A DNA stretch of 64,000 nucleotides from Escherichia coli (GTDB lineage: Bacteria; Pseudomonadota; Gammaproteobacteria; Enterobacterales; Enterobacteriaceae), in the NCBI RefSeq assembly GCF_044324875.1, contig NZ_CP172185.1. One strand, given 5' to 3'. A model generated the notes under the pieces. It saw only the letters and a program-made list of their open reading frames with translations, ran no database searches and was not told the DNA's origin. The first letter of the stretch is position 1, and every line of letters starts with the position of its first letter. The position numbers and the translations under genes are program-made. This document shows positions 47,520 to 52,196 of the stretch, piece by piece.

Positions 47520-48647
47520 TTAATATGTCTCACCCAACGCGATTTTTAAGCGATTTATCCAGCCACACAGCCCGCTCCATACCAGCAGATTAATAATCTG
47601 CGTTGATGATTTTTCGTGTTCGAGTAATGGGCTGAACTGGGCGGCGCTAAAGCGATCGGGTGCTCGGGTCAGCCATTGTATCGCCTGAACGGTAGCGCGC
47701 TCAACAGAATGACGGTCAGCCCATTGGTTAATTTCATTTTCGCCCTTGCGCAGAAGGGCGCTGATTTTTTTATATTCATTTGATGAATCCATACAGATGG
47801 CAAAACAAGCAGGACTGCCATTTATCCGCGCGCATAACAACGCCGCAAGCTGATTATCCGGCTGTGTATTGACCCGTGTGCTGTTTAGCAACTTTTCGAG
47901 AAGGGAAAGTGAAATAGGGTGGAGAGAGAGTGTTTCGGCCAGTTGGCAAAGTTCTGCAGTTGAACTTTTTGTGTGCTCTTCAGGTAGTTTTTCCACCTCA
48001 TAGCTGCTTCGCCAGCGTATTGACTCATCAGCAAACAGTGACGCGTCGGCATAGTTTTGTATCTCCAGACCGGGTAACCAGCGTACCGGATGCCCGAGAT
48101 AAGCCTGAAATGTCGCAATGGTCCGCGCCTGAAAGCCAATAAAACCAATGATTTGATTAATGATCACACAGTCCCAGACAGTAAGACCGACGTCATTCAG
48201 ATGCTGGCGCGATCGGTTGTCGATAATAGAAGGCGAGCTAGCCAGTTGGCGGGCATATTGCGTGATTTGTGCTAACCGATGATTACTTTCCCTGGAGGAA
48301 TCAGGCCCGGGGAGCGGCGTAAGTCGCGCCGAATAGTAGTTACATAACCGCTGGACGCCGCAAACCTGAGCAACCGTCAGGGCCGTCGACAAGCGTTCAT
48401 AAGCGGTGAAGGTCTGTGAACGGGTCACGGTAAGCTGGTCAGGGAACAACTCCACTGCAAGAACGCGCGCAGGGACCAGCCATGAAAGGAAGGGTGACAG
48501 CGTTTCTTCATCAAGGATCACGTCGAGCAGAAAGGGATCGCTGACCTTTGCGGCTTCCGGGACCAGAGGCAGAACGTCATATTCCGCAGTACTGGATTGC
48601 GTTTCATGATACCAGTGGCTTTTGCCGGTGATGTGGCGTTGTTCCAT
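47520..48647 (-). CDS. yciW: CMD/AhpD-like protein YciW
   Basis: 375 aa from ATG at 48647 with AGGAG SD; ORF continues upstream to 48725 as an alternative start. Confidence 0.85.
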
Positions 48648-48790
48648 GGGCGCTCCTTGGTCGTAAAGGAAATCGTTATCCTGACGCAAGGCGGGAAGGG
48701 GAGAAAGACGGATCGGCGATAACAAATATCAGAAAGGTATAACAGAGATAACGGGCGGCAGAACGCCGCCCGTCTTGACCAACAGAACGA

Positions 48791-49579
48791 TTATTTCAGT
48801 TCGAGTTCGTTCATTGCAGCGATGCTGAAACCGCCGTCAACGTGGACCACTTCACCGGAGATACCGGCAGAGAGATCGGAGCACAGGAATGCCGCAGAGT
48901 TACCCACATCTTCAATGGTAACGGTACGGCGAATCGGGGTAACGGCTTCGCAATGAGCCAGCATTTTGCGGAAGTCTTTGATACCGGAAGCCGCCAGAGT
49001 ACGGATCGGACCCGCAGAGATGGCGTTAACACGCACACCTTCCGGACCCATCGCGTTCGCCATATAGCGCACGTTTGCTTCCAGAGACGCTTTTGCCAGA
49101 CCCATAACGTTGTAGTTCGGGATAGCGCGCTCAGCGCCAAGGTAGGAAAGGGTCAGCAGGGCAGAACCCGGATTCAGCATGGAGCGGCAAGCTTTTGCCA
49201 TTGCAACGAAGCTGTAGGAGCTGATGTCGTGAGCAATTTTGAAGCCTTCACGGGTAACGGCGTTAACATAGTCACCATCCAGCTGATCGCCAGGTGCAAA
49301 ACCAATAGAGTGTACGAAACCGTCAAATTTCGGCCAAACTTTCGCCAGTTCAGCGAACATGGTGTCGATGCTGGCATCTTCGGCAACATCGCACTGCAGA
49401 ACGATGTCAGAACCCAATTGAGCGGCAAATTCTTCTACGCGGCCTTTCAGTTTGTCGTTCTGGTAGGTGAATGCCAGTTCAGCTCCTTCGCGGTGCATCG
49501 CCTGAGCGATACCGTAGGCGATGGACAGTTTGCTGGCAACACCGGTTACCAGAATGCGCTTACCGGAAAGAAAACCCAT
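48791..49579 (-). CDS. fabI: enoyl-[acyl-carrier-protein] reductase (NADH)
   Basis: 262 aa [26 protein letters not shown]... Confidence 0.97.
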
Positions 49580-49743
49580 AGCTTTAATCCTTATTGTTGA
49601 TGCTTGTTGTGCCTGAAAATCAGGCGATTCGTCGTTTTAGTAAACAGTACGAACAGATAAACGGTTATTATAATCAACCTGGCTGTGGGTGGCTATAGTT
49701 GCCAGGTCCGACCGGAGCAGGGTGCGGGCAGGGTGGGCGCTTT

Positions 49744-50000
49744 TCCCCTCACCCTAACCCTCTCCCCAGAGGGGCGAGGGGACCGTATTGTGCAAATATT
49801 GTCACCCCAGCAACAAACAGGCTTATACAGCCCCCTAACCCTTTCAGGGCGATGGCTGGGGTGAGAGTGAATGGTGGTTCAGACCTTGCCGAATATTCTT
49901 CATCATCCGCCTCCATGTTTTCACCACAACAGCTATTCGGCTCGGTCGGCCCCCTCGCCCTTTCAGGGAGAGGGTTGGGGTGAGGGTGACAGGCGGTTCA
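49744..50000. repeat. cluster of three GC-rich imperfect-palindrome repeat units (copies at ~49744-49785, ~49831-49882, ~49950-50000)
   Basis: Shared core CCCCCT(a/c)(a/g)CCCTTTCAGGG(c/a)GA(t/g)GG(c/t)TGGGGTGAG(a/g)GTGA; copy 1 inverted relative to copies 2-3; each self-complementary. Confidence 0.75.
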
Positions 50001-50325
50001 GTTCCTGCAGAATAATCTCCAGCACCGCCTCCTCATTACAATCAATCTCGTTATTCCAGAAACGCAGCACGGTCCAGCCCTGCGACTCAAGCCAGCTAGT
50101 GCGCCTGGAATCATAGGCAACTGCCAAATCATGCTGCCCACCATCCAGCTCAACTACTACACGCGCCGAGCAGCAAGCAAAATCGAGAATGTAGCTCCCC
50201 ACCGGATGTTGACGGCGAAATTTGAAATCACCAAAACGTCGGCTGCGAAGATATCGCCAGAGCTTTCGTTCCTGCGAAGTGAGATTGCGTCTTAAATCAC
50301 GCGCATTTGATTTTATTTTATCCAT
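49963..50325 (-). CDS. ycjD: DUF559 (Vsr-like endonuclease fold) protein YcjD
   Basis: 120 aa from second ATG (MDKIKSNARDL...); 3' end of ORF runs into GC-rich repeat copy 3. Confidence 0.8.
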   Translation of the reverse strand: MDKIKSNARDLRRNLTSQERKLWRYLRSRRFGDFKFRRQHPVGSYILDFACCSARVVVELDGGQHDLAVAYDSRRTSWLESQGWTVLRFWNNEIDCNEEAVLEIILQELNRLSPSPQPSP

Positions 50326-50395
50326 CACCTCATTCTGACAAGATTTAATCTCTTGTCAGAATGAGGTGAATAATCTGGAAGGAGGATTCAGAAAA

Positions 50396-51202
50396 TTAAC
50401 GATCTTTACGCCACGCATCCGCCGTCAATGCCTCGCCAAAATGACCGGCAATAAGCCGTTTGGTGAGTTCATGCAGCGGCGATGCCAGCACATCGGCGGT
50501 GCTGCCTCGCTCGACAACCTCGCCCTGATGCATCACCAGCACCTGGTCGCTAATATGCTTCATCATTCCGATATGCTGGGTGACATAAATATACGAAATG
50601 CCCTGTTTTTCCTGTAACTCCAGCATCAGATTAATCAACTGCGAACGCATCGACATATCCAGTGAGGCGAGGGCTTCATCGGCAATAATGACTTTTGGGC
50701 GCAATATCAGCGCGCGCGCCAGCCCCAGACGCTGTTTTTGCCCGGGTGCCAACATATGCGGATAGTAACTGACGTGATCCGGTAGCAGCCCAACCATACG
50801 CATCGTTTCAATAATCTGTTTGCGACGCTGTTCCGGTTCCAGATCGGTGTTCAGACGCAGTGGAAAATCCAGTATTTGCGAGATACGTTGACGGGGATTC
50901 AACGATGTCGAAGGATCCTGAAAAATCATGCGAATACGCTGACTACGGAAGGAATAATCGCCAAAATGCAGCGGATGATCGTCAATCAATAACTCGCCGC
51001 TGGTAGGTTCTATCATTCCCGCCAGCATTTTTGCCAGCGTGGATTTACCCGAACCATTCTCGCCAATAATCGCCAGTGTCTGGCCTTCACGTAGCGTAAA
51101 GCTCAAGGGTTTTACCGCTTCTACGGTCTGACGACGAAACCAACCGGTCCGGTAGCGGAACGTTTTACTTAAATTACGCACTTCAAGCAGCGTTTCGATC
51201 AT
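50396..51202 (-). CDS. sapF: peptide/putrescine ABC transporter ATP-binding protein SapF
   Basis: 268 aa; Walker A GENGSGKS, signature LAPGQKQR. Confidence 0.95.
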   Translation of the reverse strand: MIETLLEVRNLSKTFRYRTGWFRRQTVEAVKPLSFTLREGQTLAIIGENGSGKSTLAKMLAGMIEPTSGELLIDDHPLHFGDYSFRSQRIRMIFQDPSTSLNPRQRISQILDFPLRLNTDLEPEQRRKQIIETMRMVGLLPDHVSYYPHMLAPGQKQRLGLARALILRPKVIIADEALASLDMSMRSQLINLMLELQEKQGISYIYVTQHIGMMKHISDQVLVMHQGEVVERGSTADVLASPLHELTKRLIAGHFGEALTADAWRKDR

Positions 51203-51203
51203 C

Positions 51204-52196
51204 TCACTCTTTCTCCATGTTCAGCGGGAAATGACAGGCATAGAGATGATTTTTCGCCCCCGTCAAACGTGGCGTCACAATGCATTCTCGTTGTGCATAC
51301 GGGCAACGCGGCCCCAGACGACACCCAATCGGTAACTGTTCCAGCAGTGGGATAGCGCCGGGCAGCGTATTGAGGCGACTTTTATGCGGCATCGCGCTGC
51401 CGAAGTCTGGTATCGCGCGGATCAGCGCCTGGGTATAAGGATGATGTGGCATCGTCACCAACTCCTTACTCGGCGCGGTTTCCACCGTTTGACCGCAGTA
51501 AAGCACGTTAATTTTATCCGCCCATTGGCTAAGCATTTGTAAGTCATGGCTGATAAGCAAAATAGTGGTATTGCTGTTTTGGTTGAGACGCGTCAGGAGG
51601 CGAAAGATTTGCGCCTGGGTTGTTGGCTCCATTGAGTTTGTCGGTTCGTCAGCAATCAGCAGACGCGGTTGATTCGCCAGTGCAATGGCTATCATCACTT
51701 TCTGACATTCACCTTCGGTCAACTCATAGGGAAAACTGCGCATCGCATCTTTGTGATCTTTAATCCCCACGCGGTGCAGCAGTTCAATGGCACGGCGTTT
51801 GCGCCAGCCAAAACGCTGCCACCAACGGCCTTTATAGGTCCAGGCTGGGATGTTTTGCATCAACTGGCGACCCACTCGTTCTGAAGGATCAAGACACGAC
51901 TGCGGTTCCTGGAAAATCATCGACACGTTGTGACCAACCAGCTTGCGCCGTTCGCGTGCGGAGAGACGCAGCAAATCGATATCATCAAAACGCATACGAT
52001 CAGCTGTAACACGCCAGTTATCTTTATTCACCCCACAAATTGCTTTCGCAATCAAACTTTTGCCGGAACCGGATTCGCCAACAAGACCGCGGATTTCACC
52101 TTCGGTTAAGGTCATACTTACGCGGTCGACGGCTTTAACCCACTCATCACCGGTTTTAAATTCAATGGTCAGGTTACGAATATCGAGTAATGGCAT
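51204..52196 (-). CDS. sapD: ABC transporter ATP-binding protein SapD
   Basis: 330 aa; Walker A GESGSGKS. Confidence 0.95.

What the first reader, a model, noticed from the sequence alone, without database searches (positions are those of the whole stretch)
49740..50005. Three copies of a ~45-bp GC-rich palindromic repeat between fabI and ycjD; the ycjD C-terminus is repeat-encoded
Copy 1 (CTCACCCTAACCCTCTCCCCAGAGGGGCGAGGGGACC) is inverted relative to copies 2 and 3 (CCCCCTnnCCCTTTCAGGGnGAnGGnTGGGGTGAGnGTGA...GGTTCAG). Each unit is an imperfect palindrome able to form a stem-loop. The six-frame track shows repeat-induced ORFs (49699-49983, 49871-50116), and the annotated ycjD frame ends inside copy 3 (…RLSPSPQPSP), so its last ~12 codons are likely repeat-derived. 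The family may be one of the described enterobacterial intergenic repeats (possibly Box C type), which I cannot confirm from memory.
Basis: seen in the sequence. Interest (0 to 1): 0.35.

Follow-up and report, generated by a model that had tools for sequence, protein, structure and literature searches.

The report
BoxC repeats partnered with YcjD nuclease
The three repeats are known E. coli BoxC (TMECO) elements, but the same repeat brackets the small DUF559 nuclease gene ycjD's relatives across many bacterial phyla, suggesting a repeat-and-nuclease partnership that could explain where BoxC comes from.

Summary
Observation confirmed. Copy 1 (49745-49780, minus) is identical to published K-12 TMECO #9 (BoxC = PIT = TMECO). 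Copy 3 (49952-49987, plus) fits the full TMECO consensus and supplies YcjD's last eight codons and its stop. Copy 2 (49833-49868) is a degenerate copy. Copies 2 and 3 lie in a 119-bp tandem duplication that includes a relic of the ycjD 3' end. K-12 has 13- and 12-nt deletions that remove one G-block from each, giving its shorter YcjD.

YcjD homologues are conserved through the Pro/Ser tail because the repeat itself is conserved there, read in three frames with CCC-biased proline codons.

A tail-free DUF559 probe gave 80 loci from many phyla. TMECO density is 24-fold higher within 200 nt of the gene (p about 3e-29). Orientation is fixed, and 29 loci are bracketed by inverted copies, forming units of roughly 390-600 bp. 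One genome holds two identical 502-bp units with 9-bp flanking direct repeats.

Best reading: BoxC/TMECO is the cis element of a DUF559 (Vsr-like nuclease) cassette, analogous to REP/RAYT. The association is shown; the mechanism is inferred. I found no prior report of the link.

The parts
49745..49780 (-). Copy 1: canonical TMECO/BoxC element, type A mm (CCCTCGCCCCTCTGGGGAGAGGGTTAGGGTGAGGGG)
   Evidence: Exact consensus match. Identical to K-12 TMECO #9 in Table 1 of PMC4666352. ssDNA fold -12.4 kcal/mol, z -2.5.
49833..49868 (+). Copy 2: degenerate TMECO, one mismatch in each of its three blocks
   Evidence: Two mismatches in the two-G-block pattern, one in the C-block. Aligns with copy 3. 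Does not fold better than shuffles. K-12 has a 13-nt deletion here that removes one G-block.
49952..49987 (+). Copy 3: canonical TMECO with TTG in loop 2; overlaps the ycjD 3' end and encodes SPSPQPSP plus the stop codon
   Evidence: Exact consensus match. ORF end at 49963. K-12 has an in-frame 12-nt deletion of one G-block, giving ...RRSPSP*. The 12-nt length difference is also reported in PMC12817139.
49796..49914 (+). Unit 2 of a 119-bp tandem direct repeat; holds copy 2 and, at about 49869-49914, a relic of the ycjD 3' coding end
   Evidence: Direct-repeat family D1. 83% identity over 126 nt with unit 3. In K-12 a 23-nt stretch is identical between the units.
49915..50033 (+). Unit 3 of the 119-bp tandem repeat; holds copy 3 and the true ycjD 3' end
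49963..50328 (-). ycjD: 121-aa DUF559 (Vsr-like PD-(D/E)XK) nuclease-fold protein; domain is residues 4-111
   Evidence: ORF. Pfam PF04480, E 1e-48. RefSeq annotation in strain 042. PDB 3HRL homologue, E 2e-39.
49703..50325 (.). About 620-bp segment (three TMECOs plus ycjD) that alternates with the eefRABCD operon between fabI and sapF among E. coli strains
   Evidence: 3,345 of 5,426 genomes carry it; in the others similarity stops at window 49702. The eef-type strain L083 has no TMECO in 20 kb. PMC12817139.

Best explanation
The three repeats are BoxC/PIT/TMECO elements, and this locus is where that repeat family sits next to its partner gene. Across bacteria, a DUF559 gene (a roughly 110-aa Vsr-like PD-(D/E)XK nuclease, YcjD in E. 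coli) forms a compact cassette with TMECO-type elements. A C-C-G-oriented copy overlaps the ORF 3' end. In most non-enteric lineages a C-G-G-oriented copy lies 20-130 nt upstream, so the gene is bracketed by 25-59-nt inverted repeats in a unit of roughly 390-600 bp. In Enterobacteriaceae, including this window, the oppositely oriented partner lies downstream instead: gene, then copy 3, then copy 1. E. coli additionally duplicated the 119-bp block of ycjD 3' end plus TMECO, which created copy 2. Slippage between the two near-identical G-blocks then produces 12-13-nt deletions, which is why YcjD tails differ between strains. Inferred, not shown: the DUF559 nuclease recognises and nicks the TMECO as sequence or as an extruded hairpin/triplex, and this maintains or spreads TMECO copies around the genome, as RAYT transposases do for REP/REPIN elements. 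On this view the dispersed single and paired TMECOs are gene-less derivatives.
For: Identity with the known family. Tail conservation: PSPxPSP in 79 of 120 homologues although the residues just upstream vary. DNA-level constraint: TMECO read in frames 0/1/2 in 12/1/5 loci; proline CCC 75% in the tail versus 23% in the domain. Unbiased association: a tail-free profile (A5; search patterns ELDGGQH and KFRRQxPxG) gave 80 loci from many phyla. Of 58 strict TMECOs, 39 lie within 200 nt of the gene (23.6-fold density, binomial p 3e-29), against 19 of 1,948 control ORF 3' ends. Orientation is 8 of 8 upstream '+' and 18 of 20 first-downstream '-'. A sequence-agnostic C-C-G architecture is present downstream in 48 of 80 loci, upstream in 35 and on both sides in 29, with 38-fold density. 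Inverted repeats of 37-59 nt bound units of 393-599 bp in 17 inspected loci. Family-wide: about half of 138 representatives at 50% identity carry G-E/R-G or P-x-P translations right after the domain. Discrete dispersed unit: L046 and L047 from one genome share a 502-bp unit at 99.8% with unrelated flanks and 9-bp flanking direct repeats, 9/9 and 8/9. Flanking repeats match dispersed copies elsewhere in the same genome (L016/L064). The gene sits in different chromosomal contexts in different enteric genera, with cassette-only similarity between unrelated flanks. Copy number: ycjD-positive E. coli have 12-30 strict TMECOs, ycjD-negative B2 strains 1-2 and phylogroup E strains 10-11. Nuclease plausibility: DUF559 shares a clade with Vsr and the homing endonuclease I-Bth0305I (PMC3424549), and a Caulobacter DUF559 protein causes DNA damage in vivo (PMC12907096).
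Against: No biochemical link between any DUF559 protein and a TMECO exists. In E. coli itself the gene is not bracketed: there is no upstream copy. Other E. coli TMECO sites carry no detectable ycjD relics. ycjD-negative O157 strains still keep about 10 TMECOs. The E. coli copy-number contrast follows phylogroups, so it amounts to only a few independent comparisons. Target-site-duplication-like repeats were seen in only one pair, and none abut the inverted-repeat arms in 17 other loci. DUF559 proteins do not cluster by flanking-repeat class in this sample (153 of 2,000 permutations reach the observed value). A lone PD-(D/E)XK nuclease is not known to catalyse strand transfer. Maher's group found no promoter, terminator or conjugation effect for PIT elements, and Holder et al. 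found no triplex in vivo. About 26 of 80 loci show no such architecture at my thresholds.
Confidence: 0.5

Rival explanations
1. Ordinary BoxC repeats with no functional tie to ycjD. TMECOs are autonomous or otherwise-mobilised junk repeats that happen to insert or persist at DUF559 gene ends, for example because those ends contain a preferred target. The E. coli locus is just a repeat cluster eroded by replication slippage.
For: TMECOs occur at many loci unrelated to ycjD (23 in K-12). ycjD relics are absent from other sites. TMECOs persist in ycjD-negative strains. The 12-13-nt deletions look like simple slippage between G-blocks.
Against: Chance or target preference does not easily explain a fixed orientation on both sides (8/8 and 18/20), a 24-38-fold enrichment across many phyla, lineage-specific repeat variants that bracket the gene as true inverted repeats, or the 502-bp unit that moves as gene plus repeats.
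Confidence: 0.2
2. The flanking structured repeats are expression-control or insulation devices for a potentially toxic nuclease gene (mRNA 3' stabiliser, attenuator, barrier to read-through). They were recruited from the genome's existing repeat pool.
For: The 3' element always overlaps the ORF end, and the 5' element lies in the leader 20-130 nt upstream. REP elements are known to stabilise upstream mRNA (established knowledge). A Caulobacter DUF559 nuclease is damaging when misregulated.
Against: PIT/TMECO elements showed no promoter or terminator activity in published assays. None has a T-tract terminator signature here. This reading does not explain why the very same 35-nt sequence is kept from Enterobacteriaceae to Omnitrophota, nor the inverted symmetry.
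Confidence: 0.12
3. DUF559 is a Vsr-type very-short-patch repair nuclease that acts as a guardian of the repeats rather than a mobiliser. It corrects T:G mismatches arising in TMECO-type sequences (deamination or hairpin wobble pairs), which would keep the copies unusually uniform.
For: DUF559 groups with Vsr. Caulobacter VsrA is functionally tied to a cytosine methyltransferase. TMECO copies are strikingly uniform. The minimum-energy fold of copy 1 pairs the C-block with the distal G-block through a G.T wobble. ycjD-negative lineages have fewer copies.
Against: No methyltransferase gene is linked to ycjD in the window. A repair role does not explain the inverted-repeat bracketing of the gene or the dispersed 502-bp unit. 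It is entirely untested.
Confidence: 0.13

Closest known systems
BoxC / PIT / TMECO intrastrand-triplex repeats of E. coli (Bachellier et al. 1990s; Hoyne and Maher 2000; Holder et al. 2015, PMC4666352)
   Same: Same sequence family. Copy 1 is TMECO #9 and copy 3 fits the consensus. The elements are dispersed in the genome, occur as inverted type A / type B pairs, and sit at strain-variable loci.
   Different: The published descriptions call them always intergenic and found no associated gene or function. Here one copy forms the 3' end of ycjD, and the family is tied to DUF559 genes across phyla.
REP/REPIN elements and their RAYT (TnpA-REP) transposases
   Same: A short structured GC-rich repeat is dispersed in the genome. 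A single-copy, mostly vertically inherited gene is flanked by inverted copies of that repeat. Doublets form larger hairpins. Repeat abundance tracks gene presence.
   Different: RAYTs are HUH/Y1 single-strand DNA transposases, whereas DUF559 is a Vsr-like PD-(D/E)XK nuclease. REP cleavage by RAYT has been shown biochemically; nothing has been shown for DUF559.
EDxHD / Vsr-like homing endonuclease I-Bth0305I (PDB 3r3p) and Vsr (1cw0)
   Same: Placed in the same PD-(D/E)XK clade as DUF559 (PMC3424549). Small site-specific nicking or cleaving enzymes, one of which is a selfish-element nuclease.
   Different: I-Bth0305I is encoded in a group I intron and Vsr is linked to dcm. YcjD-type genes are free-standing and flanked by triplex-type repeats.
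Insertion sequences and MITEs (terminal inverted repeats plus target-site duplication)
   Same: Units of about 450 bp bounded by 37-59-nt inverted repeats, with the ORF running into the right repeat. One pair has 9-bp flanking direct repeats. Gene-less inverted doublets resemble MITEs.
   Different: No DDE, HUH or serine/tyrosine recombinase is present. Target-site duplications were not seen at most loci. The gene is single-copy in most genomes.

Membership tests
BoxC / PIT / TMECO repeat | Consensus CCCTCNCCC-N3-6-GGGNGAGGG-N3-GGGNGAGGG | tested here: met
   Copies 1 and 3 match exactly; 0 expected in shuffles. Copy 2 fails with three mismatches and is a degenerate member.
BoxC / PIT / TMECO repeat | Identity with a catalogued genomic copy | tested here: met
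   Copy 1 equals TMECO #9 (1,351,204-1,351,239, antisense) in Table 1 of PMC4666352, and is at the same position in K-12 locus L001.
BoxC / PIT / TMECO repeat | Multi-copy dispersal in the genome | tested here: met
   4,906 of 5,426 E. coli genomes, median 13 and up to 25 places per genome. 23 strict copies in K-12.
BoxC / PIT / TMECO repeat | Strictly intergenic location (as stated by Holder et al.) | tested here: not met
   Copy 3 overlaps the annotated ycjD CDS. TMECOs overlap DUF559 ORF ends in many genomes. This corrects the published description; it does not argue against membership.
BoxC / PIT / TMECO repeat | Forms an intrastrand purine-motif triplex in vitro | not testable with these tools
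   Shown by CD and NMR for oligonucleotides of identical sequence type in PMC4666352. Only hairpin folding could be computed here.
REP/RAYT-type repeat-enzyme system | Gene flanked by inverted copies of the genome's dispersed repeat | tested here: met
   29 of 80 loci are bracketed in the correct inverted orientation, and 54 of 80 have at least one side. Long inverted repeats. Flanking repeats match dispersed copies. Not met in the E. coli window itself, where both partners are downstream.
REP/RAYT-type repeat-enzyme system | Enzyme is an HUH/Y1 (IS200/IS605-like) transposase | tested here: not met
   YcjD is Pfam DUF559 / MTES_1575, a PD-(D/E)XK fold. It is therefore an analogue and not a member.
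REP/RAYT-type repeat-enzyme system | Repeat abundance depends on presence of the gene | tested here: inconclusive
   E. coli ycjD-positive strains have 12-30 strict TMECOs, ycjD-negative strains 1-11. The contrast is confounded by phylogroup.
Insertion sequence / MITE | Terminal inverted repeats plus target-site duplication | tested here: inconclusive
   Inverted repeats are common. Target-site-duplication-like 9-bp repeats were found only for the L046/L047 unit, and there the unit ends lie outside the inverted repeats.
Insertion sequence / MITE | Encodes a recognised transposase | tested here: not met
   The only ORF in the unit is the DUF559 nuclease.
Vsr very-short-patch repair endonuclease | T:G mismatch nicking, genetically or functionally linked to a cytosine-5 methyltransferase | not tested
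   Sequence and profile relatedness only. No methyltransferase gene lies next to ycjD.

The most novel reading that the evidence does not exclude
BoxC/TMECO-type triplex or hairpin repeats and DUF559 nucleases form a previously unrecognised repeat-enzyme system. It would be functionally parallel to REP/RAYT but driven by a Vsr-like PD-(D/E)XK nuclease, and it is spread across many bacterial phyla. E. coli ycjD would be the resident enzyme gene, and the dispersed BoxC singlets and inverted doublets would be its non-autonomous progeny.
Probability: 0.4. Interest if true: 0.85.

Novelty: new variant of a known kind. Interest (0 to 1): 0.62.

Why it matters
BoxC/PIT/TMECO elements have been catalogued since the 1990s. 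They were shown to form triplexes in vitro and to mark unstable loci, yet no origin, partner protein or function has been assigned. DUF559 is one of the larger uncharacterised nuclease families, with about 42,000 clusters at 50% identity. Linking the two gives each a testable hypothesis: does YcjD cut or bind TMECO DNA, and does TMECO copy number decay without it? It would add a second, mechanistically different example of the REP/RAYT type of long-lived intragenomic replicator. It would also explain the odd low-complexity 'PSPxPSP...GEG' tails that gene callers attach to thousands of DUF559 proteins. In practical terms it explains the strain-variable YcjD C-termini (117-160 aa) and the fabI-sapF polymorphism in E. 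coli.

Tried and rejected
- Rfam on 48000-52000: only sub-threshold miRNA hits on the sapF/ycjD hairpin, which are spurious.
- ycjD relics at other E. coli TMECO sites: the 88-nt ycjD 3' coding probe occurs once per genome, so the dispersed E. coli TMECOs are not recent ycjD cassette remnants.
- Clean presence/absence alleles for target-site duplications in E. coli: K-12 pair #10+11 is missing in B2 strains only as part of a larger ygfF-containing region, so it is uninformative.
- More copies of the L046-type unit: an exact-pattern metagenome scan found none, and exact-protein look-ups found none or a single short contig.
- Viral contigs: only 23 DUF559 loci, so this is not a typically phage-borne element.
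- Co-clustering of DUF559 proteins with repeat class: not significant.
- Neisseria test against Holder's genome counts: eight TMECO-like elements surround the carA-carB DUF559 gene, but they fail the strict consensus, so the counts cannot be equated.
- Intrinsic-terminator reading of the repeats: rejected, because there is no T-tract and published assays were negative.
- Protein-level function for the Pro/Ser tail: rejected on frame variability and codon bias.

Full report
**What is in the window.** The region is the E. coli fabI-ycjD-sapF interval and is nearly identical to strain 042. All three repeats are present as described.
- Copy 1 (49745-49780, minus strand) and copy 3 (49952-49987, plus strand) satisfy the published TMECO consensus CCCTCNCCC-N3-6-GGGNGAGGG-N3-GGGNGAGGG exactly; no match is expected by chance.
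- Copy 2 (49833-49868) has one mismatch in each block.
- Copy 1 is inverted relative to the other two.
- As single-stranded DNA, copy 1 folds clearly better than shuffles, copy 3 marginally and copy 2 not at all.
- None of the three resembles an intrinsic terminator.

**Which family.** Holder et al. 2015 (PMC4666352) state that BoxC, Maher's PIT elements and their TMECO are the same motif. Copy 1 is letter-for-letter their K-12 TMECO #9 at 29 min. The unit is dispersed: a 61-nt probe finds 4,906 of 5,426 complete E. coli genomes, with a median of 13 places per genome.

**The ycjD end and local history.** The ycjD ORF (49963-50328, minus strand, 121 aa) has a DUF559 domain covering residues 4-111. 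Its last eight codons, SPSPQPSP, are the reverse complement of the two G-blocks of copy 3. The TGA stop is the TCA in the repeat's first loop.

Copies 2 and 3 are embedded in a 119-bp tandem duplication (49796-49914 and 49915-50033, 83% identity). The duplication includes about 45 nt of ycjD 3' coding sequence, so unit 2 carries a relic gene end.

K-12 has the same layout, but with a 13-nt deletion in copy 2 and an in-frame 12-nt deletion in copy 3. Each removes exactly one of the two near-identical G-blocks. This explains why K-12 lists only one TMECO here and why its YcjD is 117 aa and ends in RRSPSP. The 12-nt difference was reported, without mention of repeats, in PMC12817139. Other strains have YcjD products of up to 160 aa, because indels shift the frame into units 2 and 1.

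The whole segment of about 620 bp (three TMECOs plus ycjD, roughly 49703-50325) alternates with the eefRABCD operon. It is present in 3,345 of 5,426 genomes, and the eef-type allele has no TMECO.

**The refutation test misfires.** YcjD homologues that are only 55-69% identical (Enterobacter, Klebsiella, Kluyvera, Phytobacter, Franconibacter and others) almost all end in PSP[QR]PSP, while the residues just before the tail vary freely. This is DNA conservation and not peptide conservation. At DUF559 3' ends the TMECO is read in all three frames (12, 1 and 5 loci), giving PSPxPSP, PHPxPLP or LTPxLS tails. Proline codons are 75% CCC in the tail against 23% in the domain.

**A family-wide association.** To avoid seeding the search with the repeat, I built a tail-free profile (A5). 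The genome scan used only the peptide patterns ELDGGQH and KFRRQxPxG. It returned 80 loci from Proteobacteria, Omnitrophota, Melainabacteria, Nitrospirota, Chloroflexota, Planctomycetota and other phyla.

| Test | Result |
|---|---|
| Strict E. coli consensus, total | 58 occurrences in 716 kb |
| Within 200 nt of the DUF559 gene | 39 of 58 (23.6-fold density, binomial p 3e-29) |
| Control ORF 3' ends with a TMECO | 19 of 1,948 |
| Orientation, upstream copies | 8 of 8 '+' |
| Orientation, first downstream copy | 18 of 20 '-' |
| Sequence-agnostic architecture at the domain end | 48 of 80 loci |
| Same, mirror image within 160 nt upstream | 35 of 80 loci |
| Same, both sides | 29 of 80 loci (38-fold density overall) |

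The sequence-agnostic search looked for two similar C-rich blocks, a loop and a complementary G-block. In 17 loci inspected, inverted repeats of 37-59 nt bound units of 393-599 bp, and the ORF runs into the right repeat. Among 138 anchored representatives of the roughly 42,000 DUF559 clusters, about half show P-x-P or G-E/R-G translations immediately after the domain.

In Enterobacteriaceae, including this window, the upstream copy is missing. Instead, an oppositely oriented partner lies 45-160 nt downstream of the first copy. The E. coli arrangement is that layout plus the 119-bp duplication.

**Signs of mobility and of dispersal.**
- Two contigs of one Omnitrophota genome carry an identical 502-bp unit (99.8%) in unrelated contexts. 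It is flanked by AGTTCAAAA/AGTTCAAAA in one and GTGAATATT/CTGAATATT in the other.
- In genomes with several divergent DUF559 genes, the flanking repeats match dispersed copies elsewhere.
- The gene occupies different chromosomal contexts in E. coli, the Enterobacter group, Kluyvera and others. Similarity restricted to the cassette occurs between unrelated flanks.
- Published work reports three repeated transposase-plus-DUF559 segments as recombination hotspots in L. pneumophila.
- In N. meningitidis the DUF559 gene lies among eight TMECO-like elements in the carA-carB spacer, although these fail the strict consensus.

**Copy number within E. coli.** I combined Holder's Table S1 with ycjD status. 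B2 strains (ycjD-negative) have 1-2 strict TMECOs and phylogroup E strains (ycjD-negative) 10-11. Phylogroup F strains have 6-7, but I did not check their ycjD status. Strain 042 has 12, and A/B1/C strains 13-30. This is suggestive, but the contrast follows phylogroups.

**Interpretation.** Shown: these are BoxC/TMECO elements, the YcjD tail is repeat-encoded, and TMECO-type repeats are physically and directionally coupled to DUF559 genes across bacteria. Inferred: the DUF559 nuclease acts on the repeat and maintains or spreads it, in parallel with REP/RAYT.

Support for the inference comes from three points. DUF559 shares a PD-(D/E)XK clade with Vsr and the homing endonuclease I-Bth0305I. It has a solved homologue, 3HRL. 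One member causes DNA damage in vivo.

Several findings count against it:
- There is no biochemistry for any DUF559 protein on a TMECO.
- Other E. coli TMECO sites carry no ycjD relics.
- There is only one example resembling a target-site duplication.
- Protein and repeat class show no co-clustering.
- TMECOs persist in ycjD-negative strains.
- Published functional assays of PIT elements were negative.

**Novelty.** Searches for DUF559, ycjD, COG2852, RAYT/REPIN with Vsr, and related terms found no paper that links the gene family to the repeat. The library is incomplete, so prior description elsewhere cannot be excluded. The finding as originally stated is ordinary. The association uncovered behind it appears new, and it makes the origin of BoxC experimentally testable.

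Noticed in passing
window 50326-50368: An 18-nt perfect inverted repeat (CACCTCATTCTGACAAGA / TCTTGTCAGAATGAGGTG, 7-nt loop) lies between the sapF stop and the ycjD start. It overlaps the ycjD start codon and promoter-like sites on both strands. A homologous hairpin is kept in the eef-type strain, so it is probably the sapF terminator. It produces spurious sub-threshold miRNA Rfam hits.
   Followed up: partly
window 49667-49702: The fabI promoter-like site (TAGCCA-17-TATAAT, minus strand) lies exactly at the left edge of the segment that alternates between the ycjD-type and eefRABCD-type alleles.
   Followed up: partly
window 49703-50325; L083 10224-18080: The ycjD-plus-three-TMECO segment (about 620 bp) and the roughly 7.9-kb eefRABCD operon are alternative occupants of the fabI-sapF interval (3,345 of 5,426 genomes are ycjD-type). 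The eef-type allele has no TMECO within 20 kb.
   Followed up: yes
proteins P0001-P0018 (E. coli and Shigella YcjD variants): YcjD C-termini are hypervariable among strains (117-160 aa). Indels in the TMECOs shift frame or stop, so translation runs into units 2 and 1.
   Followed up: partly
L112 2476-3932 (N. meningitidis carA-carB spacer): The Neisseria DUF559 gene (the family of PDB 3HRL) sits among eight TMECO-like elements. Its protein has no Pro/Ser tail, and the elements fail the strict consensus because loop 1 is only 2 nt.
   Followed up: partly
L084 2849-3423 (IMG/VR contig): Strict TMECOs flank a DUF559 gene in the opposite orientation (C-C-G upstream, C-G-G downstream) to that seen in bacterial genomes.
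   Followed up: no
L107 380-490 (K-12 ygfF-gcvP spacer) versus L109 (UTI89): K-12 TMECO pair #10+11 is absent from B2 strains together with the whole ygfF gene, so bglA directly abuts gcvP. This is a 'region missing' polymorphism next to TMECOs.
   Followed up: partly
window 49745-49780 (copy 1, minus strand): In the minimum-energy single-strand fold, the C-block CCCTCGCCC pairs with the distal G-block GGGTGAGGG through a single G.T wobble. T:G is the substrate class of Vsr-type nucleases. This is noted only as a speculative lead.
   Followed up: no
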